From a virus (Duplodnaviria > Heunggongvirae > Uroviricota > Caudoviricetes), in IMG/VR virus record IMGVR_UViG_2639762987_000002: 64,000 nucleotides of DNA; one strand, given 5' to 3'. Shown one piece after another: positions 24,177 to 57,621 of the stretch. The position numbers and the translations under genes were made by a program. Below the pieces are notes generated by a model. That model saw only the letters and a program-made list of their open reading frames with translations. It searched no databases and was not told where the DNA came from. Position 1 is the first letter of the stretch, and every line of letters begins with the position of its first letter.

Positions 24177-24177
24177 T

Positions 24178-30684: not shown

Positions 30685-30726
30685 CTATCGACTGCCCCGA
30701 CCGGGGCAGTCTCACAAGGATGTGAG

Positions 30727-31062
30727 ATGGAAAGACAAACGTTTAATTGGTATCCAGATTACGAATCTGAAAAGAGCGTAAAACCGAATGTAACGGTACT
30801 TAATTTTGGTGATGACTACGAGCAGCGACAGGCTCAAGGTCTTAATCGTATTAAAGAAGAATGGTCGTTAACCTTTACCAGATCATACAACGAAATTAAT
30901 GCAATCGATGATTTCCTGACTGAGCGATCAGGTGTTGAATCGTTCTATTGGGTTAATCCAAGAGGCAAGCAGATTGTAGTTGTATGTGACAGTCATACGG
31001 TCAAGCGATATCAGGGGTACTGTGTCTTAACTGCTACATTCAGACAAGTATTTGAGGCTTAA
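30727..31062 (+). CDS. minor tail protein, lambda M-like (111 aa)
   Basis: Size and position in the H-M-L-K-I-J order. Confidence 0.6.
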   Translation: MERQTFNWYPDYESEKSVKPNVTVLNFGDDYEQRQAQGLNRIKEEWSLTFTRSYNEINAIDDFLTERSGVESFYWVNPRGKQIVVVCDSHTVKRYQGYCVLTATFRQVFEA

Positions 31063-31144
31063 GCATCTGGATAAGTAAGTACTAATTTACTATCATTGTG
31101 GCGCTGACAGGATGTTAGCGCCTACTTATTTCAAGGATGAAACA

Positions 31145-32633: not shown

Positions 32634-33211
32634 TTCATGTGCAGCTTGGCGGCCCTATGGCCAAACATTTTGGCCGCCACTGGCATCTAAAGGTGCGTAA
32701 TACAAAACAGGCTCTGGATTTAATTGAGGCCAACAAGCCTGGGTTTAAAGCATGGATGAAGCGCAATATCAAAACCTATGACAGATACCACATCCAGATC
32801 ACCAATAAACAGGGCCACAAGTGGTCTGTGGACGAGAGTGAATATCAGATGATGGGGCAGTCTGACAATATTGCAAAAATCCGCATTACACCTGTTCCGC
32901 GAGGAAGCGGTGGATCTGCTTTTGGATGGTTTCAGACGGTTGTTGGAGCAGTATTAATGGTTGCCTCGATATGGGTGCCCGCTCTTGCGCCTCTCGGTTT
33001 GTCACTGATGATGGGCGGTATAGCGCAAATCATATCTCCGCAAGCCACTAACGAAAGTGTGAGGCAGGCGGATAACTCGAACTCTTATTACTTTGATGGA
33101 CCTCAAAACACAACAAACCAGGGGAACCCTGTACAGCTTATCTATGGCGAGGAAATTTTAGTTGGCTCACAGGTCGTGAGTTCTTCTATCACCATCGACC
33201 AGCTTATGTAA
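32621..33211 (+). CDS. tail assembly protein, lambda I-like (196 aa)
   Basis: Position; hydrophobic segment VVGAVLMVASIWVPALAPLGLSLMMGG. Confidence 0.65.
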   Translation: MSELVHVQLGGPMAKHFGRHWHLKVRNTKQALDLIEANKPGFKAWMKRNIKTYDRYHIQITNKQGHKWSVDESEYQMMGQSDNIAKIRITPVPRGSGGSAFGWFQTVVGAVLMVASIWVPALAPLGLSLMMGGIAQIISPQATNESVRQADNSNSYYFDGPQNTTNQGNPVQLIYGEEILVGSQVVSSSITIDQLM

Positions 33212-33222
33212 TCAAGGATTTT

Positions 33223-37953: not shown

Positions 37954-38046
37954 TGGTAGAAAAAAATATTTATATCGGTAAAAATAAGTAGGTACTTACT
38001 TAATGGTGGGCAAGGATAGCCCACCAAATCAAGGAGCATATTCAAC

Positions 38047-41000
38047 ATGTGGTACAGGGAAGGTACTATCACATTTACACAGGGCAGCAATACTCTGGTT
38101 GGGGCAGGTACAGCCTGGAACGTAACAGCTAATGGTGTGTTGCCGGGGATGATCGTCATTGGCCCCGACAATAAGCTGTATGAGATCAAGCGCGTAACCA
38201 GTGATACGAACATTGTTCTCTCAGAACCTTATACCGGCGAAACTCAGTCTGAAGTTCCGTGCCGAATCATTACGACCTATGAAGGCGACTTAACACAGTT
38301 TAGCGCGCGCTTTACAGCACTAATGTCGCGTATGTCGGCTGATTCCAAGTCCATGCGCAGTTGGTTGACTGCTCTGGATGAGGTGACAATCGAGCGTGAA
38401 GACGGTACAGAAGTGACCGTTAAGCCGCTAATGCAGATCGTCAACGAGCACAACGAAAACGTTGAGTGGTATAAAAATAACACTGACGCGATTGATGCTG
38501 CTGGCGACAAAGCTCGTGAGGCGGCGGCCAGTGCTGCCGCAGCAGCAAAAAGCGCCAATGCCGCTGGAGAAAAAGCCTCTCAAGCGTCTCAAAGTGCATC
38601 CGCTGCGGCATCCTCACAAAGTGCCGCAAGTGCGAGTGCAACTGCTGCGAAAAAATCTGAAACGAATGCTGCAGCGTCACAAAAATCTGCAGCCACTTCT
38701 GCATCCACCGCGACCACGAAGGCGTCAGAAGCTGCCACCTCAGCCCGGGATGCGGCGGCCTCAAAAGAGGCAGCAAAATCATCAGAAACGAGCGCAGCCT
38801 CGAGCGCCAGTAATGCCGCTTCCTCGGCAACGGCGGCTGGAAATTCCGCGAAGGCGGCAAAAACGTCCGAGACGAACGCCAGGTCTTCTGAAACGGCAGC
38901 GGGACAGAGCGCCTCGGCTGCGGCAGGCTCAAAAACAGCGGCTGCGTCGTCTGCCAGTGCCGCGTCAACAAGTGCCGGGCAGGCCTCAGCCAGTGCCACC
39001 GCCGCCGGAAAATCGGCAGAAAGTGCCGCATCGTCTGCTTCAACGGCCACAACGAAGGCTGGCGAAGCCACTGAACAGGCCAGCGCAGCAGCGAGGTCTG
39101 CTTCCGCAGCGAAGACATCCGAAACGAACGCGAAAGCGTCGGAAACCCGTGCAGAATCCTCAAAAACGGCAGCCGCATCGTCCGCCAGTTCGGCAGCGTC
39201 ATCGGCATCATCTGCGTCTGCTTCAAAAGATGAGGCGACCAGACAGGCGTCAGCAGCGAAGGGCAGCGCCACGACGGCATCCACGAAAGCAACAGAGGCG
39301 GCAGGCAGTGCGACGGCTGCATCTCAGAGCAAAACTGCTGCCGAATCTGCTGCGACTCGTGCAGAAGCTGCCGCTGATCGTGCTGAAGAGATTGCCGGTG
39401 CAGTTGCGATGGAAGACGCAAGCCTTACAACTAAAGGTGTTGTGAAACTTAGCAGTGCTGTCGATAGCACCAGTGAATCGCTGGCTGCAACGCCAAAGGC
39501 AGTTAAAACTGTTAAAGATAGTTCAGTTCAAAAAACTGGCGACACAATGGGAGGGCAGTTAAAAATCGGCACGATAAATGCTCTTCGAATATTCAACCAA
39601 GCCTTTGGCCTTATTTTTAGGCGTTCCGAAGATTATATTCATCTTATCCCGACTAATGAAGGGGAGGGAGAAAATGGAGACATCGGTTCATTAAGACCAT
39701 TCTCTATAAACTTAAGATCAGGGTTGGTGTCCATCGGTAATGGACTAAAAGTTGGTGGTAGTGTTACTGGTAATTTGACCGGAAACGCAGATACTGCGAC
39801 CAAGATCAAGACAGCACGTAAGATTGGGGGCGTGGCATTTGATGGATCGGCAGATATCAACTTGCCTGGAGTCAACGCTACCGGTAATCAAAACACTACA
39901 GGTAATGCTGCGACCGCCACGAAACTTCAGGCAGCCAGAACGATTAACGGTGTGTCATTTGATGGTAGTGCAAATATCACATTGACCCCTTCAAATATTG
40001 GGGCGTTGGCATTAACTGGAGGGACTCTTTCAGGTGGTTTAACTGCTGCTGGTGAGATTATTTCAAAGTCAGCAAATGGTCTGCGTATTGCCTATGGCAA
40101 CTATGGATTCTTTATCCGAAATGATGGCTCAAATACATATTTTATGTTGACAGATTCGGGTAACAGTCTTGGTACGTACAATAGCTTAAGGCCGTTTATA
40201 ATTAGTAACTCTACTGGCAATGTTACAATTGCAACTAAATTAAACGCGAGTAGTGGTATCACTGGATCTTTATCGGGTAATGCAAGCACAGCAACCAAAT
40301 TGCAGACAGCAAGAACCATCGGTGGTGTTAGCTTCGATGGCACTGCGAATATTAATTTGCCTGGTGTTAATGCTGCCGGTAATCAGAACACTACCGGTAA
40401 CGCGGCCACAGCGACCAAGTTGCAAACAGCTAGAACTATTAACGGGGTGTCGTTTAACGGCTCTGCGAATATTTCAATACCAACAATTACGTCCAGAGGG
40501 CGCGTTACTGCGCTCACCGGTACAACACAAGGTGCTGCGACTGGATTGCAGATGTACGAGGCATATAACAATGGCTACCCTTCGTCTTACGGGAATGTGC
40601 TTCATCTTAAGGGCGCAACGGCCGTTGGTGAAGGTGAGTTGTTCATAGGTTGGAGCGGTACAAGTGGTGCTCATGCACCTGTACATGTACGTTCGCGACG
40701 AGATACGGATACATCCAGTTGGTCTGAATGGGCGCAAGTTTATACGTCCAAAGACTCAATTCCAGGTGTCAATGCCACCGGTAATCAGAACACTACTGGC
40801 AACGCAGCCTCTGCAACGAAGTTGCAGACAGCCAGAACAATTGGAGGTGTGTCGTTTAATGGCACCGCCAATATTAACTTGCCGGGTGTTAATATAGCGG
40901 GTAATCAGAATACGACTGGTAACGCAGCTTCAGCCACGAAGTTACAAACGGCTCGTACTATCGGTGGTGTTAGTTTTAACGGCACAGCCAATATTAACTT

Positions 41001-46879: not shown

Positions 46880-47647
46880 TTATGCCGCGCTAACACTATG
46901 TTCAGTCCTAACCACCCCAACCTTCACAAAAGGGCTACCGTAGCTTGGTGGCTTCTTGATTAATTTGCCTACATACAGTTTTCTAATATGCTCATCGGCT
47001 ATTCTGCCAACAAATTCATAACGTTTTGTGTCGGGGCCAAGAGCTATATCCCTTGTAAAGTACTGCTGAGAACCGGCTTTGACCCAGCATTCAATCTGAT
47101 AAACTTCCATTATCAGCCCACCATATGTAGCGTAGGCATATTTGAGATTCTCGTCTCTTGGAACCTTTGCCCATACGCCACGCGTAGCTTCATATAATGC
47201 CAGAGCGGACATTCCTGACTTGTAGGTGCTGTTTAGCAGGAAGGCAAGACCGGCGTGCTCAGGAGCAATTTCAGTTTCCTCTTGCAGCACTAAGTGATGG
47301 TAGGCGTCCAGTGATATTCTGCCCATCATGGAACCACTTCCTCGTACCTTATTCGTAAGCTCTCCGACCCCCATAAGGTCGATGCATGTCGCCTCAACAA
47401 GTTTGGCTGTGGTTTCATCCATACCATGACGAAGTATATCTATGCCTAATTTTTTATTAGCCAAAAGTTCTTTGATCCGCATGGATTTGGGAGAGTCATC
47501 GGGATACTTGATGTGATCGAGACAACGAGTCGATTTGCCTTTTCCTATGTAAAACGGTCTTTTCATCTTGTCTTCTGTATCATAGAGACAGTAAACATAG
47601 TATTTAGCCTTATCCAATGATCTCGCGTATACCGATAAATCGTCCAT
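46880..47647 (-). CDS. GIY-YIG domain protein, free-standing endonuclease-like (255 aa)
   Basis: N-terminal YVYCLYD...(11 aa)...FYIGKGK fits the GIY-(x9-11)-YIG motif; lone minus-strand gene between large palindromes. Confidence 0.6.
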   Translation of the reverse strand: MDDLSVYARSLDKAKYYVYCLYDTEDKMKRPFYIGKGKSTRCLDHIKYPDDSPKSMRIKELLANKKLGIDILRHGMDETTAKLVEATCIDLMGVGELTNKVRGSGSMMGRISLDAYHHLVLQEETEIAPEHAGLAFLLNSTYKSGMSALALYEATRGVWAKVPRDENLKYAYATYGGLIMEVYQIECWVKAGSQQYFTRDIALGPDTKRYEFVGRIADEHIRKLYVGKLIKKPPSYGSPFVKVGVVRTEHSVSAA

Positions 47648-47758
47648 TATTGCATCTCTTTGCTACTGACTAATGCGTTCTATTTTACACATAAGTTTTT
47701 AATCAATTTAACAGGCTCAAAGTGTAGAGCTTCTGGGCGTCTAAGACGACAAGTTATG

Positions 47759-47813
47759 CCTGTTTCTGTATATATAAATAATAAGTAACTTATTAAATAT
47801 ATACGGAAGCAGG
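47759..47813. repeat. 55-bp near-perfect palindrome, copy B
   Basis: cctgtttctgtatatataaataataagtaacttattaaatatatacggaagcagg; one difference from copy A. Confidence 0.85.
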
Positions 47814-47920
47814 TCTTTTAAAAGACACCACCAGAACAACTCCCTTCCGTTTCCACTTCCAAAAACTGCCACCAGTCGCTATCATCCGCTCATTGTGATA
47901 AGTAAGTAACTACCTACCAG

Positions 47921-48670
47921 GTGAGCCACATGAGCCAAATCTTTTTCGATACCATCGACAACGACCAGTACGACTTCATGACAGAGTGGAATACCGCTGT
48001 TATGGACAAGTGGGTCGCTGAAAACATTGGTTTGTCGCGCTGTAAAGACGAGGCTGAACTCTTCGAGACGAAGTGGTTTGATTACCGCGACATGCATCCT
48101 CTCATGGCCACCTGTCTTTTTACGGAGGCATACAAACGTCAGTACTCAAATATCATGCTGACGCACGGTCGCGAACACTTTGAAACAGCTCCGTTCACCA
48201 CCGGGTTAAAACGCCTGCCTTATCAGGAGTTGTCGACTGCCAATAAAACGTCGCTATGGAAAGCACGCCAGTTTGCGGATCGCTATTGCTGCTCATACGA
48301 CTACTTTATCTCCACCGTTCTTTCCGCAGCTGCACGACGGCTGTGGGACAAGCTGCCGCGCCCACAGCATTTGTGGCAGCCAGAACTGATTGAGATATTT
48401 GAAGAGAAATTAGCCAGACGCGCAACAACCCGTCTGGATGACTCTCTGGTTAGCTTTAAGCATATGGGAGACATGCAGTTCAACCCGATTCAGGAAAGCT
48501 ATTTTGAGTGGATTCTGGAGCGTTTGCGCACCATCCCTCGCAGCAAGCGCATACGCGCAATTTTCTCCGCTATCTGGCTAATGGAAATCGTTCCAGAGCG
48601 CCTTATTTCCGCCCACTTTCCAGAAGAACTGGAAGAAGCACGGCGGTTTATTGATCCCCTATCTAATTAA
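47921..48670 (+). CDS. hypothetical protein, first gene of replication module (249 aa)
   Basis: ORF; motif-2 upstream. Confidence 0.55.
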   Translation: MSHMSQIFFDTIDNDQYDFMTEWNTAVMDKWVAENIGLSRCKDEAELFETKWFDYRDMHPLMATCLFTEAYKRQYSNIMLTHGREHFETAPFTTGLKRLPYQELSTANKTSLWKARQFADRYCCSYDYFISTVLSAAARRLWDKLPRPQHLWQPELIEIFEEKLARRATTRLDDSLVSFKHMGDMQFNPIQESYFEWILERLRTIPRSKRIRAIFSAIWLMEIVPERLISAHFPEELEEARRFIDPLSN

Positions 48671-48713
48671 CTAATACTAGAAAACAATTTGTTTAAAAAA
48701 CAAAGGAAAGCAC

Positions 48714-50054
48714 ATGACCGAACTTTGCCATACAGGACGCGGGCTGTCCGAAGAGTTTGATGAAGATTTCCAGAACAGACTGACGGCATATTTTTGTCGT
48801 GATCACGAGTTTCTTACTCGTGCGGGAGATCTGGTTGTGCCTAGCCAGTTTGCCAATGCGGCCAATGCCATATTGGTTAATATGGTTTCGGGCTATTACC
48901 GTATGTACAAGAGCGCGCCCTCTTCATCTGCAATTCTGGATATGCTTAAGCGTGCGAAACGCGATAAGACTATCCGTGAGGAACTATTCGCCGATGTTGT
49001 TGCTGCGTTTAAGCGCATTCTTGCAGAAAAATTGTCCGATACCTCGTACATGGTTGACCAGGTATCAACCTTCGCAAAAAGTGTAGCGTTTGATGATGCT
49101 CTGATTAAGGCTGCTGAACTGAAAGAGAAAGGCGACTTTCAGGGGGCGATGGCAATCATGGCCAAGGTTCAGCAGATTGGATCGAACGAAGCGACCGGAA
49201 TCTATGACTACTACACCTCCGCAAGTGAGCGATTGAAAGCGCGTGAATATGAGGCTTCAGAGGAGTATGTACCAAACAGTATTACAACTGGACTCCCTCT
49301 TCTCGATAGGTTGCTGTACCAAAAAGGCTGGGCAAAGCGCGAAATGGTGCTCTTCATGGGGTTCGCTAAATCCGGTAAATCGACCGCAATGGGTGAGTTT
49401 TCCATAAACGCAACGCTTGCTGGCTACAATGTTCTGTATCTCTCGCTGGAGGTTCACACCACCATTTTATCCGACCGTTTTGATGCAAGATTGTCGGAGA
49501 CAGAAATGTCCAAGCTGGTGGAACGGCGCGATGAGGTTCATCGTAAGTTGGCAGAGTTGGGAGCCACGAAGGGGATTGGTAGTTTGTGGGTGGTTGAGCG
49601 TCCGTCAGGAAGTATGTCACCGGCAGATCTGGACCGTATGCTTAACAGCATGAAAGCCAACGGCATGGTACCTGACATGGTTGTTGTCGACTACGCAGAT
49701 TTGATGCGTGCCAGTTATGACCTTCGTGATGATCGCGCCAACATTCGTAGTATCTACACCGATTTACGTGCTCTTTATGACAAGCATAACGTTGCTGGGA
49801 TCACGGCATCGCAGACAAACCGTGAAGGTGGCGCGTCAGAAGTTGCCACAATGATGCACGCTGCCGACAACATCGAAAAAGTACGTATTGCTGACCTGGT
49901 AATAACGATCAACAAAACCGAAGAAGAAGAAGCGAAAGGAGAGGCTCGTCTCTACTTTGCCGGTTCACGTAACCAGCAGGGAGGGATCAGCATTCGCGTT
50001 AAACAAAACCTCGAACAAATGCGCTTCATTGAGCGAATCTTAGACGTTACCTAA
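48714..50054 (+). CDS. DnaB-like replicative helicase (446 aa)
   Basis: C-terminal RecA-like core: Walker A GFAKSGKST, Walker B MVVVDYADLM; motif-1 18 nt upstream. Confidence 0.75.
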   Translation: MTELCHTGRGLSEEFDEDFQNRLTAYFCRDHEFLTRAGDLVVPSQFANAANAILVNMVSGYYRMYKSAPSSSAILDMLKRAKRDKTIREELFADVVAAFKRILAEKLSDTSYMVDQVSTFAKSVAFDDALIKAAELKEKGDFQGAMAIMAKVQQIGSNEATGIYDYYTSASERLKAREYEASEEYVPNSITTGLPLLDRLLYQKGWAKREMVLFMGFAKSGKSTAMGEFSINATLAGYNVLYLSLEVHTTILSDRFDARLSETEMSKLVERRDEVHRKLAELGATKGIGSLWVVERPSGSMSPADLDRMLNSMKANGMVPDMVVVDYADLMRASYDLRDDRANIRSIYTDLRALYDKHNVAGITASQTNREGGASEVATMMHAADNIEKVRIADLVITINKTEEEEAKGEARLYFAGSRNQQGGISIRVKQNLEQMRFIERILDVT

Positions 50055-50060
50055 AAAATA

Positions 50061-50083
50061 AGCGTGGAGAACACCTCCACGCT
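50061..50083 (+). terminator. stem-loop, weak terminator or attenuator
   Basis: 8-bp stem gcgtggag/ctccacgc; no clean T-run. Confidence 0.35.
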
Positions 50084-50135
50084 TGATTCATTGGTGAAAC
50101 AACTTTTCTTTTGCCAAACCACAAAAGAAAAACAC

Positions 50136-51317
50136 ATGAGCCTTTATGTTATATCAACATTTAGGTTGGTCACAATATTGCCTGTTAAAAGTGGAATTAT
50201 CGTGAGCGAGCTGAAAGAGCTAATTACCGAATTAGATTTTGAACAATGGTTGGATACTGAAGGTATCGTTTATCGACGTGGAGGCGTGAGTACTCGCGGT
50301 CGTGAAGTGAATATCAAGGAGTGTCCGGTATGCGGCAGCTCCAACTGGAAGGTATATTTCAATCTGACCAGTGGCGTCGGTAAATGCTTCGCTGGTGATC
50401 ATCCCGAAGAGATTCAGTTCAATAAGCTGGTCTTCCTCAAGCACTACAGCGGCAAATCACGACGACAGTTCGAGGAATATGTGCAGAACGCCCTTCTTTC
50501 CCAGGGGTGGGCACCAAAGAAAGAAGAGCTAGTGCTTGCAAGCACAGTCGAGTTAGAGGAGCCAGTTGCACTCCCTCGTCATTACGAGCTTCCTATAGAT
50601 GGCCGTCTTCCAGACTATCTGGTTGAACGAAACATATCGCCTGAAATGGCAAAGTATTTTGACCTACGATACTGCGTCGAAGGCAAGCACGCCTATGTAG
50701 ATCCGTATACAGATCAGGTTAAAGGACAGATATTCGATATGCGAATACTGATACCGGTTTACGATCTGGATGGGGTAATGAAGACATTTCAGGGACGAGA
50801 CATTACCGGTACAGCAGAACGCCGCTACCTCTTTCCTATGCAACTTCCAGCTTCAGGTAAGTTTCTCTACAACGGCCATAATGCAGTCGGCAAACAGACT
50901 GTAGTTGTCTGTGAGGGGGCGTTCGATGTTATGGGGGTTAAACGAGCTATTTTTGACGAAGAAACATTACGTGATTACGTGGAACCAATAGGAACGTTCG
51001 GGATGCATCTATCTGGTAACACCACTCAGGATGCAGAAGATCAGTTAGGCGCGTTCCTGACGCTCAAGGCGCGTGGATTACGTAATGTGATCATGATGTG
51101 GGATAGTGAAAAGCAAGCTATACGCAACACGATGGCCGCAGCCAGGCGACTGACCAGTATCGGTCTTAATGTCAAAGTTGCGTGTTTGGGTGAGGAAGGA
51201 CTCGACCCGGGCGGTGCAACGCCAGAACAAATTATCAAAGCCTATTATCGGGCAAAACCGTATACCAAACAGTTGGAGTTGCAAAGCAAGGTTTTGGGCA
51301 TTAAGGCTCTATCATAA
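50136..51317 (+). CDS. DNA primase, zinc-binding plus TOPRIM (393 aa)
   Basis: CPVCGSSNWKVYFNLTSGVGKCFAGDH zinc-ribbon and TOPRIM VVVCEGAFDVMG; start moved to ATG 50136 because the listed 50064 start lies in the upstream hairpin. Confidence 0.75.
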   Translation: MSLYVISTFRLVTILPVKSGIIVSELKELITELDFEQWLDTEGIVYRRGGVSTRGREVNIKECPVCGSSNWKVYFNLTSGVGKCFAGDHPEEIQFNKLVFLKHYSGKSRRQFEEYVQNALLSQGWAPKKEELVLASTVELEEPVALPRHYELPIDGRLPDYLVERNISPEMAKYFDLRYCVEGKHAYVDPYTDQVKGQIFDMRILIPVYDLDGVMKTFQGRDITGTAERRYLFPMQLPASGKFLYNGHNAVGKQTVVVCEGAFDVMGVKRAIFDEETLRDYVEPIGTFGMHLSGNTTQDAEDQLGAFLTLKARGLRNVIMMWDSEKQAIRNTMAAARRLTSIGLNVKVACLGEEGLDPGGATPEQIIKAYYRAKPYTKQLELQSKVLGIKALS

Positions 51318-51392
51318 CAATCACCTTTAAAATAAGTAGATGATTACTTATCTTTCTGTGAGAATACTTTCATCTGTTAGCTAGGAGTTGGT

Positions 51393-52169
51393 ATGAAAGA
51401 CGAAATTCAGAAATTAGCCTGCGACATCATTGATAAAACTGGTTTAGAAATCAGCGAGAGCAATCGACTAGACATCATTGAAAAAGCGGTAAAAACAGCA
51501 ATGGATCATATCGCCACTCGTTTGGTCGAGATCCCGCTACCGGGGCTACCTTATCTGAAGGTTAAGTTACACGTATGGGGTGAACCTTCTTGTGCACGAC
51601 GTTCTGCATTAGTTGTTTTTATTAGCAAAGAAAACCCGCTCAGTCTTAAAGTGCAGGTTGGAGCATGGCTTGATGGCAGAGTGATCTACACAAATACCGT
51701 TTTTTGTCTTTCAAACGATGAAACTATTGAAGCGGCCATTCAAGAAGCAGTTCTAGCAATGCGCAGCAGCGGTTTGATGAAGAATAACTACGAAGAGTAC
51801 TTGCGTTCGATAAGTGGTGAAAAGACATTATCTCTGAAAGCAGATTTCGTTACCCCGAAAAATCTGTTGGAAGTCTTGCTTAATAAAGGGGCTAATGATG
51901 CCGTAAATGTAATCAGAGAGAGTGAGTATGCGTCTCTTTGCGACATGTGCAAAAGCCAGTTGGATCTGGTGCATATCGTTATTGATGCTGGGAAGGCATG
52001 TGATGGCGTAATGGCGGAATTTGCTTGGAAGGTGGTCAGGATTGCTAACGAATTACCGATGATAGAGCAAGAGGCTAAATCATACGCCACCAATCATGTC
52101 ACAGAGCTTCTTGCCCCCTATCGCTTAGAAAGCAATCAGCGCAAGATGATTAGCTGGGGAAGTTGGTAA
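51393..52169 (+). CDS. hypothetical protein (258 aa)
   Basis: ORF; motif-2 palindrome upstream. Confidence 0.55.
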   Translation: MKDEIQKLACDIIDKTGLEISESNRLDIIEKAVKTAMDHIATRLVEIPLPGLPYLKVKLHVWGEPSCARRSALVVFISKENPLSLKVQVGAWLDGRVIYTNTVFCLSNDETIEAAIQEAVLAMRSSGLMKNNYEEYLRSISGEKTLSLKADFVTPKNLLEVLLNKGANDAVNVIRESEYASLCDMCKSQLDLVHIVIDAGKACDGVMAEFAWKVVRIANELPMIEQEAKSYATNHVTELLAPYRLESNQRKMISWGSW

Positions 52170-52224
52170 TCTCTCCGCGCGTCGTTTTTTACGCAAATAA
52201 CGATAGGTAAGTACAAGATTATTT

Positions 52225-52707
52225 ATGGCGGTAGTTGTGAAAGCTGACTTGTCAAAAATCCCCTCTATTTCAGGAAATAATGGTTATTCACTTCGTTGTG
52301 AGGAAGTAAAGATAAACGGTGAGTCGGCATATTGCAGCTACTCCGTTTGCCAGCACACCATTCTTGCCTTCAAAGAAAACCGTCTTCCTCGAACTTCATT
52401 CCAGTCGTGCGCAACCGCTATCAAAGCAGGCAAATGCAAGGCGTTAAAAATGATGGTTGAAGAGATTCGTAAAGGAGAATCTCTGTATTTCGAAGATATG
52501 ACCGTGCTCATTAAGGAGGTTGAAGAACGGAATAAACAAGCCAGAACTTTAAAACGAAAACGTGACAGTGTAACGATTAATGGCATGGTTAAGAAGAGCA
52601 CCACATCACAAACAGCGATCACTGACGTGTATGCGGCGTTGCTTGAAGAAACAACAAAAGAAACACATGAGCAAATCGATCAACATATGGAGGTAAAACA
52701 ACAATGA
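52225..52707 (+). CDS. hypothetical Cys-rich protein (160 aa)
   Basis: ORF. Confidence 0.5.
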   Translation: MAVVVKADLSKIPSISGNNGYSLRCEEVKINGESAYCSYSVCQHTILAFKENRLPRTSFQSCATAIKAGKCKALKMMVEEIRKGESLYFEDMTVLIKEVEERNKQARTLKRKRDSVTINGMVKKSTTSQTAITDVYAALLEETTKETHEQIDQHMEVKQQ

Positions 52708-54026
52708 AAAAGTTGATCGCACTTAAGCATAAGCTGGACGAAATGAAAGCTATGGGAACCAATGCAAAAAAAGAGGCATTGGCCAACATGGATGACTTCG
52801 AGCAAAGCATGGTTTCATTGATGCTCAACCCTTTCATCCGTTTTGGGGTAAAGAAATACAAAGTGGCAGAGCCGCTTAGTGAGTCCATCCCAAGTGACGA
52901 AAAAGCCATTGATGTACTGAATAAGCTGGCCTCTCGCGAGCTAACGGGGAACGCAGCAATAGCAGCTGTTGAGTCTATCGTGGCGTCAATGTGCGCCGAT
53001 GGGCAGGACGTGTTCCGTCGTTTCCTCTTAAAAGACCCGAAAGCAGGTGTTGGGATTAGCCTATGCAACAAGGTTTTTGAAAATCCCATTCCGAAATTCG
53101 AGGTGCAGCTGGCGTCACCGTATAAAGAAAAAGGCGACAAATACCCCTTCAAGCCAAATCCTAAAGCAAAATGGCCGATGATTGGCAGTCTTAAGCTCGA
53201 TGGTTTGCGAGTAATTTGCGAGGTTATTGTTGACGAGGAAGAGGTTAACTTCCTTTCTCGTACTGGTAATCCAATCACGTCTCTCGATCACCTAAAGCCA
53301 GCAATGCTCGAATTAGGCAAACTTTCAGGCCACAAACACATCTTCTTCGATGGTGAAGGAACTGCCGGTTCATTTAACCAGTCCGTATCTGCATTGCGCA
53401 AAAAGAACGTGCAGGCAATTGGCGCTATTTATCATGTTTTCGACTTCTTCCTACCGGAATGGCGAGCACAGGCTAAATCCAAAGAGTATGCAAAGACAGG
53501 TATGAAGCTGAAAGAGCGCCTGGCTATGCTGGTGGCGTTGTTCAAAAACGATCGCAGTGAAGGCTACACACAAGACATTCACCTGCATCCGTTCTATATC
53601 ATCCATAGCCACGAAGACTTCATCGAACGCTTCATGAAACGCCTGGACGATAACGAAGAAGGGGAGATGGGCAAAGATCCGAACTCTGTTTACGAGTTTA
53701 AACGTACCCGCAGCTGGTGGAAGTTAAAAGACGAAGATTCAGAAGATGGTGAAATTATCGACTTTGAGCCGGGCGACCCGGACTCTGGTTTTGCCAACAC
53801 ACTTGGAAAAATTGTTATTCGTCTTGAAAACGGCGTCATCGTTCGTGCGAGCGGCATTAAGCATAAATATCTGGATGAGTTCTGGAACAACAAAGAGAAG
53901 TACCGTGGTCGTATTGTCGAGGTTCATTGTCACGAGAAAACACCGGACGGCAGCTTACGCCACCCACGACTGAAATGGCCGCGTTGCTTACGCGATACAG
54001 AAGATCGAATCGGAGATAAAGAATGA
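52704..54026 (+). CDS. ATP-dependent DNA ligase (440 aa)
   Basis: Adenylation motif I KLDG in IGSLKLDGLRVI. Confidence 0.75.
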   Translation: MKKLIALKHKLDEMKAMGTNAKKEALANMDDFEQSMVSLMLNPFIRFGVKKYKVAEPLSESIPSDEKAIDVLNKLASRELTGNAAIAAVESIVASMCADGQDVFRRFLLKDPKAGVGISLCNKVFENPIPKFEVQLASPYKEKGDKYPFKPNPKAKWPMIGSLKLDGLRVICEVIVDEEEVNFLSRTGNPITSLDHLKPAMLELGKLSGHKHIFFDGEGTAGSFNQSVSALRKKNVQAIGAIYHVFDFFLPEWRAQAKSKEYAKTGMKLKERLAMLVALFKNDRSEGYTQDIHLHPFYIIHSHEDFIERFMKRLDDNEEGEMGKDPNSVYEFKRTRSWWKLKDEDSEDGEIIDFEPGDPDSGFANTLGKIVIRLENGVIVRASGIKHKYLDEFWNNKEKYRGRIVEVHCHEKTPDGSLRHPRLKWPRCLRDTEDRIGDKE

Positions 54027-54202
54027 TGCTCGGCTGGATGATTGCATTTTTAGCAGTTGGTTTTTTCATAGGTATTGTGGTGATGTCCAGTTGCATCAAT
54101 GACTACATTAAAAGCGGTGTTATAGAAAGACGCGGTCGTATTTATCGCATTGTAGAAATAACCAACACCCTGAAGGAGATTAAGGATGATCGTATTAAGT
54201 AA
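54023..54202 (+). CDS. small membrane protein (59 aa)
   Basis: Hand-translated MMLGWMIAFLAVGFFIGIVVMSSCINDYIKSGVIERRGRIYRIVEITN...; paralogous to 54398..54550. Confidence 0.4.
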   Translation: MMLGWMIAFLAVGFFIGIVVMSSCINDYIKSGVIERRGRIYRIVEITNTLKEIKDDRIK

Positions 54203-54401
54203 ACGGGAGAAGGAAACGCTTCATGAAATCAGTAAGTGGCCGGAGTTCCCTGAGTACTGGAAGCCTAAAACGCGAGCTAAGTTAGAGCGTTTAGGGTTGG
54301 TTGCAAACGTTTCTGAAACGTGGTGTTCGGCCAACTACCAGTTAACTGATAAAGGGAAAGTATTGCTACAGCAATTAGTAGAATCAGGAGTGTTAAAATG
54401 A
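54186..54401 (+). CDS. hypothetical protein (71 aa)
   Basis: ORF with RBS ggagat. Confidence 0.45.
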   Translation: MIVLSKREKETLHEISKWPEFPEYWKPKTRAKLERLGLVANVSETWCSANYQLTDKGKVLLQQLVESGVLK

Positions 54402-54550
54402 TTCCATACATCTCATTAGCTTTTATGGGTGGCTTCCTTATCGGCTTCGGCATCTGTCGTGATTTAATTAAGCAGGAACTTAAAACCAAAACACTGTGCA
54501 TCGGAAAGCGTGTGTATCGGGTAGTTCATGAAACAAAGGTGAAAAAATGA
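54398..54550 (+). CDS. small membrane protein, paralogue of 54023..54202 (50 aa)
   Basis: Hand-translated MIPYISLAFMGGFLIGFGICRDLIKQELKTKTLCIGKRVYRVVHETKVKK. Confidence 0.4.
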   Translation: MIPYISLAFMGGFLIGFGICRDLIKQELKTKTLCIGKRVYRVVHETKVKK

Positions 54551-54837
54551 GCAATTTAACTTCTTGGGAATGGTGGTTGGCCACCTATTTCTTAGCGGCC
54601 GGAGTCGCATTCGCCTTTTACGTAGGTCAGTTAGTCGTAAAACTGTTGCTGATTAAATTTGCTAGTCATAAACGTATCGATGATGGTCTGTGGCGTCTTG
54701 GCACCCTAGTGGAAACTCGCTACGGGCAACTTAAGGAGAACGAAACCATTACTATCCAAGCGAAACGATTCACTGCCACCATTACAAGAACACCTAGTCG
54801 TAGAGTGGCCTTGATCAAAAAAGTCACAACCGAATAA
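54547..54837 (+). CDS. membrane protein (96 aa)
   Basis: N-terminal TM helix WWLATYFLAAGVAFAFYVGQLVV. Confidence 0.5.
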   Translation: MSNLTSWEWWLATYFLAAGVAFAFYVGQLVVKLLLIKFASHKRIDDGLWRLGTLVETRYGQLKENETITIQAKRFTATITRTPSRRVALIKKVTTE

Positions 54838-55615
54838 AAACATATTGATAAGTATTTACTTACTTATCTTTTGTGTATAAGATGACTTTGTTTTCGTTGA
54901 GACGCGACTGTTTGAACTTAAATACAAGTGCAAACGAAGAAGTCTATCTGGCAGTAGCCTAATAAGCCAAACACCAGCGAGGTCAGTTTCCAGCCTCGTT
55001 ACCGAAATGGGACACACTGAGCGAGTGTGATTGCAGAACGCAGGAGGGAACATTCATGTTCCCTCCGATGAAGTAACAGAATGGGCGGTTGGTATATTTT
55101 CAACTCCATATGACTCCCGGATTCTTAGCCACTGACCGCCCATCCTGTTACGTCATTTTGTTCAATTATGTCGTTTATACTGGGTTAAAAAGCGGCGACG
55201 TAGCCCGGCTGGTATGGTTAGCCAGCACACAACGTTGAGGCCATTACATTTTTATCAATTCTAAGGTTCTATTCACAGAGATACCGGCGAGCGTTGATAT
55301 GTAACATGTTGGGCAAACATTCAATCGGAGTAGTGGCCTCAACGTTGTGAAGACGGGATTGTTGTGTAGGTTTAACCACTGTTGCCATTGGTGCCTGTTT
55401 TCACAACAAATGATTCCATACATCACATTGTATAAATTACAAAGTAGGTGCTGTCCTCAGAAACATCATCTACTTAAAGATTTTGCCTTCTACTATTGAG
55501 CGAAGTCGAAAGCGTCTGGCACTAACGAAAAGTGCAAGTAGCGGTGCGTTTCCTGGCAGAAACTAAACCGTCGCGATTGGCACTGTTGAGTAATAAATAC
55601 TGGCAGTGCTGAATT

Positions 55616-55690
55616 GATGGTGTAGCTCAGCGGTAGAGCAGTTGGCTGTTAACCAACTGGTCGGTGGTTCGAATCCACCCACCATCGCCA
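55616..55690 (+). tRNA. tRNA-Asn (anticodon GTT)
   Basis: Hand-folded cloverleaf: acceptor gatggtg/caccatc, anticodon loop ctGTTaa, T-loop ttcgaat, encoded CCA. Confidence 0.85.
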
Positions 55691-55695
55691 ATTTA

Positions 55696-55782
55696 GGGGA
55701 GTTAGTCCGTAGAGGTAGCGGTGTAGACTGTAAATCTACTGTCATGGCGACTCGGGTGGTTCGACTCCATCACTCCCCACCA
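55696..55782 (+). tRNA. tRNA-Tyr (anticodon GTA), long variable arm
   Basis: Acceptor ggggagt/actcccc, anticodon stem-loop gtaga-ctGTAaa-tctac, 87 nt, encoded CCA. Confidence 0.8.
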
Positions 55783-55786
55783 AATT

Positions 55787-55862
55787 GCCGGTTTAGCTCA
55801 GTTGGTAGAGCGCCTGCCTTGTAAGCAGGATGTCAGCGGTTCGAGTCCGTTAACCGGCACCA
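55787..55862 (+). tRNA. tRNA-Thr (anticodon TGT)
   Basis: Acceptor gccggtt/aaccggc, D-arm gctcagttggtagagc, anticodon loop ctTGTaa, encoded CCA. Confidence 0.85.
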
Positions 55863-56079
55863 ACACAACAGGAAAGAGCATTGAAAACCGCCGAGACTGC
55901 CCTGTTTTAAGCGTAAGTCCGTGCAAACGTCATACAGTGCTCTTTTCGTTGTGGTTGATGCGCAGACTGATGCGCGGAAAGAAATGCCCCAGCGACACAC
56001 GAGGCGAGTTCACACACTGCAATGCAGTCAGTAGCCGGGGTCGCTAAGCCGGAGATCAGTACCGGTAACCACAACAATT

Positions 56080-56166
56080 GGAGAGTAGGGAGCATGGTGC
56101 TCAAGCGGTCTTGAAAACCGTCCCATTGTGCAAACGATGATGGTTCGATTCCATTACTCTCCGCCA
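56080..56166 (+). tRNA. tRNA-Ser (anticodon TGA), long variable arm
   Basis: Acceptor ggagagt/actctcc, anticodon loop ctTGAaa, 87 nt, encoded CCA. Confidence 0.8.
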
Positions 56167-56278
56167 GACACAGCGTTGAGCGGTTTGGCCTTTTAATCAA
56201 CTCGATTAAGACTCCGCTAACATAAACCAGACCGCTCAACGCTGTGATAGATAATTACGGCAGACGTTCTTAACCATA

Positions 56279-56346
56279 GCTTGCTAACATCCTAGCAACA
56301 CTTTTTTCAGCGCAAAATTCAAAGGGGCTTCGGCCCCTTTTTTGTT
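56279..56346 (+). terminator. Two tandem Rho-independent terminators after the tRNA cluster
   Basis: ttgctaacatcctagcaa plus cactttttt, then ggggcttcggcccc plus ttttttt. Confidence 0.8.
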
Positions 56347-56358
56347 GAACAGTGCAAT

Positions 56359-57621
56359 TTACTTTGCATAGTCGCCCAATTTTAATATTTCGCGCTTATA
56401 TTCATTAACCATGCTACTGGATTCAGTATAAATTCGATTTAAAAGATTATCGTTATCTTTATTTTCATTTATCTTAATTAGTGCTAATTTATATTCATAG
56501 TCATCAAATGCCACAATTAAATGGTGGCCTGGGATTATATCTTCGTCACTCTTAAAGTATATATCTTCAAGTATGTAATCTAGTTGATTAGATTTTCTTT
56601 TCTCGATGTAATCTTCAGCCATAGCTATTACATCATTCCTGTCATTTAACCTGTTTTTTTCGGAAGGCACATCTTCGTAATGTTGCACGATTGAACAACC
56701 AATAAGGCGTGGGATGTAAACGTCAAAATGAGTAACTCTATCATTCGCGGTTTTAAGTAGTTCCTCAAAGTAGTTTCTTACATGTAAAGGCAACTTCTCA
56801 AAGTAATCATTAATTATAGGAGAACAAGGAGTTTTATAATTCATAAGAACCGACGGTACGAGCTTTGGGTGTCGAAACATCCAGTCCCTTTTAACGTCCG
56901 ATGGAACATAATAACTTTTAATGATATTATCAAAATAATTTATCATTCGAGATTTGAATATTTTGTTGAATCTAAGGTTTATGAATGTATCCAGATAAGG
57001 CATATTTGAATAAGCATCATCAAAAAATATTTCTTCATTGAAGAAATCATATTTATTTAATAAATAAAACAGTTTTTCCGAATTAATATGTTCACAATAA
57101 TCGATTTTTAATCCAAAGATAGCAATGATCAACTTCATCTGAGGTGGGATTTTAAAAATTAATTGTGACACATACGCTCTTTTTTCCTTGAGACATTCCC
57201 CATCAATATAAAATGAACCATCCACATACTCAAATATATTAATAATATGCTTCACATACTGTATTACCTCATGCTGTCTTACCAATGGATAATATAGTCT
57301 ATGTAACTCATCGCTGTTTAAATTAATTTTGTGTTTATCGATAATTTGTTTTGCAAGAAGACATAACTCATCATGTTGATTTAATAAGGAATCAAACCAT
57401 TGTTTAAATGCACTCTTTCGCATTTCGAACAATGATTCAGTTGTTAATTGAAGGGCTGAAAAAGCCGCTTTTGCACTTTTTCTCGCTTCGTAGGCATTCC
57501 ATGCTGTTGCTATAAAAGCAAATGCTGTAGCCAATGTTCCAACAGTTTGACCATTTAAAACAACCCAATCCCAAAAAATGACGGTGAGCAGTAGTATAAT
57601 AATGAAAATTAAAAAAGGCAT
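56359..57621 (-). CDS. AT-rich membrane-anchored protein of unknown function (420 aa)
   Basis: Visibly AT-rich versus neighbours; N-terminal hydrophobic helices (FLIFIIILLLTVIFWDWVV, TLATAFAFIATAW); no catalytic motif recognised. Confidence 0.7.
   Translation of the reverse strand: MPFLIFIIILLLTVIFWDWVVLNGQTVGTLATAFAFIATAWNAYEARKSAKAAFSALQLTTESLFEMRKSAFKQWFDSLLNQHDELCLLAKQIIDKHKINLNSDELHRLYYPLVRQHEVIQYVKHIINIFEYVDGSFYIDGECLKEKRAYVSQLIFKIPPQMKLIIAIFGLKIDYCEHINSEKLFYLLNKYDFFNEEIFFDDAYSNMPYLDTFINLRFNKIFKSRMINYFDNIIKSYYVPSDVKRDWMFRHPKLVPSVLMNYKTPCSPIINDYFEKLPLHVRNYFEELLKTANDRVTHFDVYIPRLIGCSIVQHYEDVPSEKNRLNDRNDVIAMAEDYIEKRKSNQLDYILEDIYFKSDEDIIPGHHLIVAFDDYEYKLALIKINENKDNDNLLNRIYTESSSMVNEYKREILKLGDYAK

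What the first reader, a model, noticed from the sequence alone, without database searches (positions are those of the whole stretch)
54023..54837. Cluster of four small genes, three encoding membrane proteins, two of them paralogues
Two short proteins (59 and 50 aa, found by hand below the ORF cutoff) share a hydrophobic N-terminus followed by a basic RIYRIV / RVYRVV segment; a third is a 96-aa membrane protein. They sit tightly packed after the ligase gene. Small phage membrane proteins often act in superinfection exclusion or host take-over.
Basis: seen in the sequence. Interest (0 to 1): 0.4.

Follow-up and report, generated by a model that had tools for sequence, protein, structure and literature searches.

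The report
Four small phage-plasmid genes after ligase
Four real, conserved small genes of an SSU5-type phage-plasmid encode three single-pass membrane proteins (two are paralogues) and a tiny DNA-binding-fold protein of unknown role; the more surprising feature is an unannotated tmRNA-like "tag RNA" gene starting about 50 bases downstream.

Summary
The window is an SSU5-like phage-plasmid, 98.6% identical to Escherichia phage Cyrano. Four + strand ORFs (59, 71, 50 and 96 aa) follow the ATP-dependent DNA ligase. Start and stop codons overlap at every junction, and each gene has a Shine-Dalgarno site 7 nt upstream.

All four are conserved from E. coli to Yersinia pMT1, Salmonella, Klebsiella and Cronobacter, with dN/dS of 0.08-0.5. 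g1, g3 and g4 each have one N-terminal transmembrane helix and a basic tail. g1 and g3 are paralogues (hhalign 95.6%, E 1e-8). g2 is a minimal winged-helix protein.

No family with a known function matches. NCBI's name "C-type natriuretic protein" for g4 looks spurious.

Published RNA-seq of a Cyrano lysogen puts g2-g4 and the ligase at background level. That argues against prophage-expressed exclusion and for a lytic-cycle role, whose mechanism remains a guess.

The finding itself is ordinary: phage small membrane proteins of unknown function already catalogued as PHROGs.

Just downstream (about 54855-55350) I noticed a highly conserved structured RNA gene. It carries an SsrA-like tag frame (ANEEVYLAVA*) and a covarying pseudoknot. 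It is unannotated and also occurs in lambdoid prophages. It deserves its own follow-up.

The parts
52704..54026 (+). ATP-dependent DNA ligase (440 aa). This is context: its stop codon overlaps the g1 start (ATGA).
   Evidence: ORF. Pfam PF01068 DNA_ligase_A_M, E 5.8e-13. Annotated as DNA ligase in Cyrano, SSU5 and pMT1.
54023..54202 (+). g1: 59-aa bitopic membrane protein (TM about residues 3-25) with a cytoplasmic tail ...GVIERRGRIYRIVEIT... It is a paralogue of g3. Relatives start at the second ATG (54026).
   Evidence: KD19 2.55. phrog_4381, E 1e-39. dN/dS 0.08-0.14. 532 plasmid records by tblastn. Cleanly deleted in some E. coli and Buttiauxella elements.
54186..54401 (+). g2: 71-aa soluble minimal winged-helix (MarR/PadR-like fold) protein.
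   Evidence: phrog_4054, E 2e-45. AF2 pLDDT 82 with H-H-beta-beta-H topology. Foldseek top hits are MarR-family wHTH, TMq 0.68-0.75. Weak profile hits to the MarR recognition helix plus wing. pN 0.20-0.31 against pS >= 0.74.
54398..54550 (+). g3: 50-aa bitopic membrane protein (TM about residues 2-20) with a cytoplasmic tail ...KTLCIGKRVYRVVHET... It is a paralogue of g1.
   Evidence: KD19 1.84. phrog_6302, E 1e-36. dN/dS 0.17-0.5. hhalign against g1: 95.6%, E 1.1e-8. 682 plasmid records.
54547..54837 (+). g4: 96-aa bitopic membrane protein with an N-terminal TM continuing into a long helix, then a beta-hairpin (ETITIQAKRFTATIT) and a basic, low-confidence (possibly disordered) tail. Mis-named 'C-type natriuretic protein' in NCBI records.
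   Evidence: KD19 2.00. phrog_4507, E 2e-58. AF2 model with helix 6-61, strands 67-71 and 76-80, pLDDT 67.8. dN/dS about 0.08-0.09. Homologues only in SSU5-like elements.

Best explanation
SHOWN. g1-g4 are genuine protein-coding genes forming the translationally coupled tail of the SSU5-type replication-gene block (helicase, primase, two unknowns, ligase). g1, g3 and g4 are single-pass inner-membrane proteins. Each has a 1-17-residue N-terminus without K/R and a K/R-rich C-terminal tail, so the predicted topology is N-out/C-in. g1 and g3 are paralogues. g2 is a 71-aa winged-helix protein. The block is silent in the plasmid-prophage state.

INFERRED. The genes are made together with the phage replication proteins during lytic development. 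The three membrane proteins probably form a small cytoplasm-facing assembly on the inner membrane. Each tail ends in a short predicted or suspected beta-hairpin with a basic turn (GVIER-RG-RIYRIVEI, KTLCI-GK-RVYRVVHE, TITIQ-AKR-FTATI), which could pair edge to edge.

My preferred specific mechanism is that this assembly recruits DNA or DNA-bound g2 to the membrane. It would act as a membrane anchor or organiser for replicating phage DNA, as phi29 p16.7 and p1 do. I hold this specific mechanism at only about 0.2-0.25. The general statement, a lytic-cycle cytoplasm-facing accessory membrane module that is not a prophage moron, I hold at about 0.6.
For: - Coding and conservation.
- Start/stop overlaps and SD sites.
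- Same layout in SSU5, pJN2-26, pMT1, Enterobacter, Klebsiella and Cronobacter.
- A clade with only 56% g2 identity keeps the four-gene order, with a positional g4 analogue (TM + helix + hairpin SYTVTTKGYIVTVKK) that HMMs no longer detect.
- Transmembrane segments and positive-inside charge.
- g4 model.
- g2 wHTH fold.
- Net charges are +3, +7 and +7 for g1, g3 and g4.
- Position directly behind helicase, primase and ligase.
- Floor-level transcription in lysogens, like the structural genes: PMC9928086 S1 Table.
- No sigma-70-like promoter found inside 47000-56500, and no terminator between the ligase and g4.
Against: - No homology to p16.7, p1 or any characterised protein.
- Adjacency to replication genes is weak evidence in mosaic phage genomes.
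- The module is not indispensable. g1 is cleanly deleted in roughly a third of E. coli elements (139 records with g1 against 218 with g3). In some Klebsiella elements the g3 C-terminus and g4 are replaced by an unrelated 138-aa tail-anchored protein.
- Topology, hairpins and complex formation are predictions. The g4 model is of middling confidence (pLDDT 67.8), and g1 and g3 were not modelled.
- Translation has not been shown directly.
- In the LF82 data, g2-g4 rise slightly more than the ligase in DMEM and in macrophages (log2 about 5-6 against about 4), so a separate weak promoter cannot be excluded.
Confidence: 0.35

Rival explanations
1. Lytic-phase host take-over or early superinfection-exclusion effectors. 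The small membrane proteins would act singly on host inner-membrane targets soon after induction or infection, as T4 Imm and Sp do. Possible targets are transporters, the divisome, FtsH or the DNA-entry route. g2 would be an unrelated small regulator.
For: Small bitopic proteins in phage early regions commonly have such roles (established knowledge). The cluster is expressed with non-structural genes and is silent in the lysogen. Lineage-specific loss of g1 and replacement of g3/g4 is typical of accessory, host-interaction genes. g1 and g4 homologues are confined to one phage-plasmid family, while g2 has a few more distant relatives of unknown context.
Against: No match to any exclusion, Abi or defence family (PADLOC, PHROG, Pfam). 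The predicted periplasmic parts are only 1-17 residues. Conserved order, translational coupling and co-retention of all four genes across deep divergence suggest one functional unit rather than independent effectors.
Confidence: 0.3
2. Membrane sequestration switch for g2. The bitopic proteins would hold or release the winged-helix protein g2 at the membrane to time transcription of neighbouring units, for example the tag-RNA/tRNA unit immediately downstream or late genes.
For: g2 has a DNA-binding fold and is embedded between the membrane-protein genes with coupled translation. A conserved promoter-like element lies about 20-45 nt after the g4 stop.
Against: There is no operator or repeat evidence and no precedent by homology. 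In some elements g2 persists with an altered complement of membrane partners: Buttiauxella keeps g2, lacks g1 and has only a weak 57-aa remnant of g3/g4. The tag RNA also occurs in lambdoid prophages where no g1-g4 were seen nearby.
Confidence: 0.1
3. Prophage-expressed superinfection exclusion or lysogenic-conversion genes (morons), the most literal reading of the first reader's idea.
For: An SSU5-like plasmid in K. pneumoniae reduced plasmid uptake and phage burst (PMC8969562 abstract). No gene was assigned to this effect.
Against: In LF82/Cyrano the ligase, g2, g3 and g4 are at 5-8 normalised counts in LB, with g3 at zero reads. They are not among the 13 Cyrano morons defined at 5-fold above background or more. 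There is no promoter of their own.
Confidence: 0.05
4. Lysis-timing proteins (holin or antiholin-like) or type I toxin-like membrane peptides.
For: Size and N-terminal transmembrane segments. A very weak g4 hit to a holin PHROG (phrog_2359, E 0.027).
Against: The element has a separate complete lysis cassette of holin, endolysin, Rz and Rz1 about 10 kb away. There is no Hok/Gef or other toxin family hit. No antisense-RNA-type organisation was seen: the genes are co-oriented and start/stop-coupled with the ligase, which points to polycistronic expression.
Confidence: 0.05

Closest known systems
PHROG families phrog_4381 (g1), phrog_4054 (g2), phrog_6302 (g3), phrog_4507 (g4); equivalent genes SSU5_045-048 and CYRAN_37-39, and the unnamed hypothetical genes of Y. 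pestis pMT1 and Salmonella plasmids
   Same: Full-length matches at E 1e-36 to 1e-58. Same order and overlaps after the ligase.
   Different: Nothing differs: these are the same families. None has an assigned function. g1 is not annotated at all in Cyrano and some RefSeq records.
Bacillus phage phi29 p16.7 and p1 (membrane organisers of phage DNA replication; from established knowledge)
   Same: Small proteins encoded with the replication genes. Both are membrane-associated; p16.7 is anchored by an N-terminal transmembrane helix, as g1, g3 and g4 are predicted to be. Cytoplasmic parts are basic or DNA-binding, and both are accessory rather than essential.
   Different: No sequence or detectable fold relationship. 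Here the DNA-binding fold is on a separate soluble protein (g2), and there are three membrane partners. No experiment supports the analogy.
T4 Imm and Sp; P22 SieA; HK97 gp15 (phage membrane proteins that exclude superinfecting phage; from established knowledge)
   Same: Small phage-encoded inner-membrane proteins. Imm and Sp are made early in lytic infection.
   Different: No homology. Tails are predicted to be cytoplasmic. Not expressed in the lysogen, unlike SieA and gp15.
MarR/PadR-type winged helix-turn-helix regulators (for g2)
   Same: Recognition helix, beta-wing and following helix. Foldseek top hits are FabT, Rv2887, MarR, SlyA and PadR-like proteins at TMq 0.64-0.75. Profile alignment to ScoC and MarR over ...KLE..GLV...Y.LT.KG..LL.
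   Different: Only 71 aa, lacking the N- and C-terminal dimerisation helices of MarR proteins. All sequence matches fall far below curated cut-offs (HTH_45 12.3 bits against 25.5).

Membership tests
PHROG phrog_4381 / 4054 / 6302 / 4507 (unknown function) | Full-length profile match | tested here: met
   E 1.1e-39, 1.7e-45, 1.4e-36 and 1.8e-58, each covering the whole profile.
Bitopic (single-pass) inner-membrane protein, N-out/C-in (g1, g3, g4) | One hydrophobic segment of about 19 residues or more above the transmembrane threshold | tested here: met
   KD19 of 2.55, 1.84 and 2.00, against 0.33 for g2. AF2 gives a continuous helix over residues 6-61 of g4.
Bitopic (single-pass) inner-membrane protein, N-out/C-in (g1, g3, g4) | Positive-inside charge bias that fixes the orientation | tested here: met
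   No K/R in any N-flank and 4 K/R in the first 15 residues after each transmembrane segment. This is a prediction only; experimental topology was not testable here.
g1/g3 paralogue pair | Significant profile-profile similarity that is colinear over the whole length | tested here: met
   hhalign 90.9%, E 1.1e-6. With the divergent clade added: 95.6%, E 1.1e-8. Soluble tails alone: 74%, P 2.8e-5.
MarR-family transcription factor (g2) | Winged-helix fold | tested here: met
   AF2 pLDDT 82. Foldseek top 50 are almost all MarR, PadR or related wHTH proteins at TMq 0.54-0.75.
MarR-family transcription factor (g2) | Family profile match at the curated threshold, plus flanking dimerisation helices (about 140 aa) | tested here: not met
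   Best Pfam hit is HTH_45 at 12.3 bits against a 25.5 cut-off. PDB profile hits have E 0.01-2. The protein is only 71 aa.
Superinfection-exclusion or defence proteins | Homology to a known exclusion or defence family | tested here: not met
   PADLOC gives no hit for g1, g3 or g4, and only weak wHTH-type hits for g2. Pfam and NCBIfam give nothing significant.
Superinfection-exclusion or defence proteins | Expression from the resident prophage or plasmid (for the lysogenic type) | tested here: not met
   CYRAN_36-39 are at the floor in LB lysogen RNA-seq and are not listed as morons (PMC9928086).
Superinfection-exclusion or defence proteins | Exclusion phenotype | not testable with these tools
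   Requires plating or adsorption-injection assays.
Holin / lysis cassette | Location in the lysis cassette and a holin family match | tested here: not met
   Holin, endolysin, Rz and Rz1 lie elsewhere (CYRAN_22-25). The only hit is g4 against phrog_2359 at E 0.027.
phi29 p16.7/p1-like replication membrane anchors | Sequence or fold homology | tested here: not met
   No Pfam or PHROG link. This is an analogy only.
phi29 p16.7/p1-like replication membrane anchors | Encoded and expressed with the replication genes; membrane anchor | tested here: met
   Start/stop overlap with the ligase downstream of helicase and primase. Transmembrane segments. Expression tracks the replication genes in the lysogen.
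phi29 p16.7/p1-like replication membrane anchors | Binds DNA or the replisome and localises replication at the membrane | not testable with these tools
   Needs microscopy and biochemistry.
C-type natriuretic peptide (NCBI name for g4) | Disulfide-bonded ring formed by two conserved cysteines (from established knowledge of the vertebrate hormone) | tested here: not met
   g4 of the window has no cysteine at all (translation). No NCBIfam or Pfam model supports the name. The name appears only as source text.

The most novel reading that the evidence does not exclude
g1, g3, g4 and g2 would together form a previously undescribed membrane-anchored module specific to SSU5-type phage-plasmids. Three bitopic proteins would join their cytoplasmic beta-hairpins into one sheet that docks a minimal winged-helix protein. 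This would tether phage DNA, or a regulator of it, to the inner membrane when the element switches from plasmid maintenance to lytic replication.
Probability: 0.12. Interest if true: 0.55.

Novelty: new member of a known kind. Interest (0 to 1): 0.3.

Why it matters
SSU5-like phage-plasmids (pMT1 of Y. pestis, pHCM2-like plasmids of S. Typhi, and many E. coli, Klebsiella and Enterobacter plasmids) are common in clinical Enterobacteriaceae. This cluster was found in 532-752 plasmid records. Knowing that these four ORFs are real, co-translated, lytic-phase genes corrects existing annotation: g1 is often missing and g4 is mis-named. It also defines a compact, testable four-protein module.

On present evidence the cluster is still one more set of phage small membrane proteins of unknown function.

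The neighbouring tag RNA could matter more. If it works in or against trans-translation, it would be a phage-encoded way to tag or rescue ribosome products. It occurs in 259 of 5,426 complete E. coli genomes and has never been annotated there.

Tried and rejected
- **Family scans.** Pfam, NCBIfam and PADLOC scans of all four proteins gave only sub-threshold noise, for example Dicty_CAD, UBA_BIRC2-3 and Tetrabrachion.
- **Wide protein searches.** Searches with g1 and g4 found only SSU5-like elements. The exhaustive HMMER search with g2 found 21 proteins. About nine are 60-75-aa relatives at 45-55% identity, and one 225-aa hit (P0101) was a spurious repeat.
- **g4 chimera.** P0072 (g4-like with PF13876) is a chimera after residue about 58, not a clue to function.
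- **g4 versus g1/g3.** No detectable relationship. The shared TM-helix-hairpin layout is only an architectural resemblance.
- **g4 versus its positional analogue in the divergent clade.** E 0.0099, colinear but not convincing.
- **Replacement gene.** The 138-aa protein that replaces g3/g4 in Klebsiella belongs to phrog_34759, function unknown.
- **Antisense ORFs.** Those in the region, such as 54277-54501 (-), were rejected. Codon-position variability and dN/dS fit the + strand frames.
- **Y. pestis sRNA-seq (PMC3770706).** Its two pMT1 sRNAs map elsewhere, so it gives no expression evidence for this locus.
- **Tag RNA.** I could not find a canonical tRNA-like domain (acceptor stem with G3-U70 and CCA) in the window's version. 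ARAGORN calls no tmRNA in 61 related loci. Rfam hits stay below gathering scores. Literature searches for a phage or phage-plasmid tmRNA of this kind found nothing.
- **Not run.** The third wide protein search and fold searches with the mediocre g4 model, because they were unlikely to add anything.
Full report
**What the window is.** The region around the finding is 98.6% identical to Escherichia phage Cyrano, the SSU5-like phage-plasmid of E. coli LF82. It is 100% identical to an E. coli O169:H41 plasmid. In Cyrano the surrounding genes run: tail genes, a lysis cassette, toxin-antitoxin and ParA genes, then helicase, primase, two unknown genes, DNA ligase, the small genes, tRNA genes, integrase, repressor and a DNA polymerase III alpha subunit. 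The ligase carries the ATP-dependent ligase domain (PF01068, E 5.8e-13).

**The observation.** The four ORFs are exactly as described. g1 is 54023-54202 (59 aa), g2 is 54186-54401 (71 aa), g3 is 54398-54550 (50 aa) and g4 is 54547-54837 (96 aa). The ligase/g1, g2/g3 and g3/g4 junctions are ATGA overlaps, and g1 and g2 overlap by 17 nt. Each start codon has a Shine-Dalgarno-like GGAG, AAGGAG, AGGAG or AAGG 7 nt upstream (read). No sigma-70-like promoter was found within 47000-56500. No terminator-like site lies between the ligase and the end of g4, apart from one weak 5-bp hit inside g4. The first strong terminator on this strand is at 56321-56340, after the tRNA genes.

**Are they genes?** Yes.
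- The same four genes, in the same order and with the same overlaps, are present in SSU5, Klebsiella phage pJN2-26, Y. pestis pMT1, and plasmids of Enterobacter, Salmonella, K. oxytoca, K. grimontii and Cronobacter. Amino-acid identity is 58-80%.
- blastn finds the region in 752 plasmid records. tblastn finds g1 in 532 and g3 in 682.
- Variable alignment columns are most frequent at third codon positions.
- Pairwise dN/dS is 0.08-0.14 for g1, about 0.08-0.09 for g4 and 0.17-0.5 for g3. For g2, synonymous sites are saturated while pN stays at 0.20-0.31.
- All four match PHROG families over their full length. All of those families have unknown function.

**What the proteins look like.**
- g1, g3 and g4 each have one N-terminal hydrophobic stretch (best 19-residue Kyte-Doolittle means 2.55, 1.84 and 2.00). 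g2 has none (0.33). The N-terminal flanks carry no K/R, and the 15 residues after each transmembrane segment carry four. This predicts N-out/C-in. Net charges are +3, +7 and +7.
- An AlphaFold2 model of g4 (pLDDT 67.8, best over the membrane helix) gives one long helix over residues 6-61, a beta-hairpin at 67-71 and 76-80, and a low-confidence tail.
- By eye, the g1 and g3 tails have the same strand, basic turn, strand pattern around RIYRIV and RVYRVV. That is inference, not a model.
- g2 folds with pLDDT 82 into helix, helix, two strands, helix. Its nearest solved structures are MarR, PadR and SlyA-type winged-helix domains (TMq up to 0.75). A profile of g2 relatives aligns weakly to the recognition helix and wing of ScoC and MarR proteins.
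- At 71 residues and far below family cut-offs, g2 is a minimal winged helix, not a MarR-family member.

**Paralogy.** Profiles of g1 and g3 align without gaps over 47 columns (Prob 90.9%, E 1.1e-6). Adding a divergent clade raises this to 95.6%, E 1.1e-8. The soluble tails alone still give P 2.8e-5. In the divergent clade the relationship is visible by eye...KDSIKAGVMEFRGRIYRIVDVT against ...HDLIKQEIKTGVICFGRRVYRVVHST. g4 is not detectably related to either.

**Natural variants.**
- Among 94 related loci, 68 have all four genes.
- Eleven of the twelve loci scored as lacking g1 carry a clean deletion that places the g2 start on the ligase stop. The twelfth (L079) has lost most of the ligase as well.
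- Buttiauxella also lacks g1.
- One K. variicola plasmid has lost most of the ligase together with g1 and g2.
- Some Klebsiella elements have the g3 C-terminus and g4 replaced by a 138-aa tail-anchored protein of unknown function.
- A clade with only about 56% g2 identity keeps g1, g2 and g3. In the g4 position it has an 83-aa protein with the same TM-helix-hairpin-basic tail layout that HMMs no longer recognise.

The module is therefore conserved but not indispensable, as expected for accessory genes.

**Expression evidence from the literature.** Misson et al. (PMC9928086) analysed RNA-seq data for LF82, which carries Cyrano. In LB-grown lysogens the ligase, g2, g3 and g4 (CYRAN_36-39) have 5.9, 6.4, 5.0 and 7.6 normalised counts. 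The value 5.0 for g3 is the floor, meaning zero reads. These values are the same as for terminase, capsid and tail genes. Genes the authors call morons reach 50-340 or more, and CYRAN_36-39 are not on that list. g1 is not annotated in Cyrano, so it has no value. In DMEM and in macrophages, g2-g4 rise modestly (log2 about 5-6). The cluster thus behaves like lytic-cycle genes repressed in the plasmid state. This argues against a prophage-expressed exclusion function but says nothing about lytic-phase roles.

**Mechanism.** Nothing homologous has a known function, so the mechanism is inferred from anatomy.
- The four genes are made together and with the replication proteins.
- Three of the products place short basic cytoplasmic tails on the inner membrane.
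- One product has a DNA-binding fold.

My best guess is a small cytoplasm-facing membrane assembly that recruits DNA or DNA-bound g2. This would be functionally analogous to phi29 p16.7 and p1, which organise phage DNA replication at the membrane (established knowledge). I hold the specific mechanism at about 0.2-0.25. Nearly as likely is that these are lytic-phase host take-over or early-exclusion effectors acting on membrane targets. Less likely are a membrane sequestration switch for g2, lysis-timing proteins (a complete lysis cassette lies elsewhere) and prophage morons (contradicted by the RNA-seq).

**Annotation notes.**
- g1 is missing from the Cyrano annotation and from several RefSeq records.
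- g4 is widely named "C-type natriuretic protein". No model supports this name, and the window's g4 has no cysteine, whereas the hormone is defined by a disulfide ring (established knowledge).

**Verdict on the finding.** They are ordinary in kind: small phage membrane proteins of unknown function, already catalogued. The paralogy and the conserved four-gene architecture are modest new points.

**Side discovery (outside the finding's coordinates).** The roughly 780-nt "empty" stretch between g4 and tRNA-Asn is more conserved at the DNA level than the genes. It is about 79-82% identical between elements whose g1-g4 DNA is 69-75% identical.

It begins with a conserved promoter-like pair, TTTACT (54855-54860) and TAAGAT (54878-54883), 17 nt apart. 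The spacer sequence varies among elements.

About 46 nt downstream of the -10 element lies GCA AAC GAA GAA GTC TAT CTG GCA GTA GCC TAA (54930-54962). This encodes ANEEVYLAVA*. From my own knowledge, the E. coli SsrA tag is ANDENYALAA.
- Across relatives the peptide varies just as bacterial tmRNA tags do: ANEDTYLAVA, ANDNQYLAVA, ANEDAYLAVA, ANDDVVLMAA and others. Synonymous changes occur within it.
- The frame upstream of GCA is broken by 0-, 1- or 2-nt indels. It therefore looks like a resume codon rather than an ordinary ORF.

Directly after the stop codon lies an H-type pseudoknot. Both of its stems covary over 42 distinct sequences:
- Stem 1: TGAGG/CCTCA, CGAGG/CCTCG, CAAGG/CCTTG, CGGGG/CCCCG.
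- Stem 2: CCGA/TCGG, CCAG/CTGG, CCAA/TTGG, TCCA/TGGG.

A conserved 5-bp hairpin follows. In the window's lineage there are further long helices out to about 55349, with compensatory changes (106 predicted pairs, 10 of them compensatory).

Detection tools do not recognise it.
- Rfam gives only sub-threshold tmRNA hits. The best is tmRNA_permuted at 39 bits (E 4.6e-6) in the divergent clade, which also has a perfect tmRNA-type T-arm.
- ARAGORN calls no tmRNA in any of 61 related loci checked, nor in the window itself.
- I could not find a canonical acceptor stem or CCA end in the window's version.

The same element occurs elsewhere.
- It lies between the Q antiterminator and the holin of a lambdoid prophage in an E. 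coli chromosome, with tag ANEEMYLAVA followed by a tRNA-like domain with a T-arm.
- A pattern search hit more than 120 viral contigs before it was capped. Many are 40-50 kb prophage-like contigs, some with the element next to tRNA-Met, tRNA-Arg or tRNA-Ser genes.
- It is present in 259 of 5,426 complete E. coli genomes and is annotated in none of the 30 records sampled, apart from two incidental overlaps (a partly overlapping protein gene, and a CRISPR array). That chromosomal CRISPR array carries a 33-nt spacer identical to window 55216-55248.

I found no description of such an RNA in the held literature. That is not proof that it is unknown.

Whether the RNA takes part in trans-translation, mimics or titrates tmRNA partners, or is a decayed captured ssrA is open. 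Its strong conservation and covariation argue against decay. It deserves its own evaluation. Taken alone, I would rate its interest at about 0.7.

Noticed in passing
window 54855-55349 (+): promoter-like 54855-54883; tag frame 54930-54962; pseudoknot 54978-55011; hairpin 55013-55029; further helices to about 55349: An unannotated, highly conserved structured RNA gene with an SsrA-like tag reading frame (ANEEVYLAVA*; 12 tag variants across relatives). An H-type pseudoknot with many compensatory changes follows the stop codon directly. Rfam tmRNA hits are sub-threshold, ARAGORN makes no call, and no canonical acceptor/CCA was found. The element is more conserved than the flanking genes.
   Followed up: partly
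L096 4950-5240 (E. coli ST12468 chromosome, lambdoid prophage, between Q antiterminator and holin); loci L097-L176: The same tag-RNA family (tag ANEEMYLAVA and others) occurs in lambdoid/P22-like prophages. It lies downstream of the late-promoter terminator, sometimes next to tRNA-Met, tRNA-Arg or tRNA-Ser genes. There it is followed by a tRNA-like domain with a T-arm (GCGGUUCGACUCCGC) closed by an 11-bp stem.
   Followed up: partly
L086 4596-5062 (divergent SSU5-like clade): This clade's tag RNA (tag ANDDVVLMAA) scores 39 bits against Rfam tmRNA_permuted (gathering score 47). It has a perfect tmRNA-type T-arm, GCGGGUUCGAUUCCCGC, about 320 nt after the tag start. A possible acceptor pairing is GGGUGAU/GUCACUC.
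   Followed up: partly
window 55216-55248: A chromosomal E. coli CRISPR array (NZ_LR778147.1, 1705873-1705905) holds a 33-nt spacer 100% identical to this part of the conserved non-coding region. SSU5-like elements have therefore been targeted there (H153).
   Followed up: no
window 47000-56500 and 20000-39000: Sigma-70-like promoter matches are depleted relative to dinucleotide shuffles. Counts are 0 found against 15.0 +/- 3.6 expected in the replication-gene region, and 9 against 21.1 +/- 5.1 in another 19 kb.
   Followed up: partly
window 55616-56166: A cluster of four tRNA genes (Asn-GTT, Tyr-GTA, Thr-TGT, Ser-TGA) ends at a strong terminator at 56321-56340. Cyrano has only Asn, Thr and Ser, and SSU5 only Asn. 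The tRNA-Ser scores 44.8 bits against the Rfam tRNA-Sec model, just below its gathering score.
   Followed up: no
window 55228-55349: A long inverted repeat, CACAACGTTGAGGCC...GGCCTCAACGTTGTG, forms a stem of 15-19 bp (one mismatch in the window; 19 bp in relatives) around a loop of about 85-90 nt. Compensatory changes occur between elements (GAGGCC/GGCCTC against GAGACC/GGTCTC). It could be an RNA helix, a DNA cruciform or a protein-binding site.
   Followed up: partly
L010 2199-2766 and L079 4213-4780 (Klebsiella SSU5-like plasmids): The g3 C-terminal half and all of g4 are replaced by a 138-aa protein with a C-terminal membrane anchor (phrog_34759, unknown function). This leaves a g3 N-terminus fused to unrelated sequence.
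   Followed up: partly
window 54547-54837 and relatives: NCBI and RefSeq records widely name g4 'C-type natriuretic protein'. No NCBIfam or Pfam model supports the name, and the protein has no cysteine, so it appears to be a propagated mis-annotation.
   Followed up: yes
window 56359-57621 (-): A 420-aa ORF lies on the opposite strand just past the tRNA terminator. It has an N-terminal hydrophobic segment and AT-rich, low-complexity-looking sequence. Cyrano has different genes at this position (CYRAN_41-43), so this looks like variable cargo.
   Followed up: no
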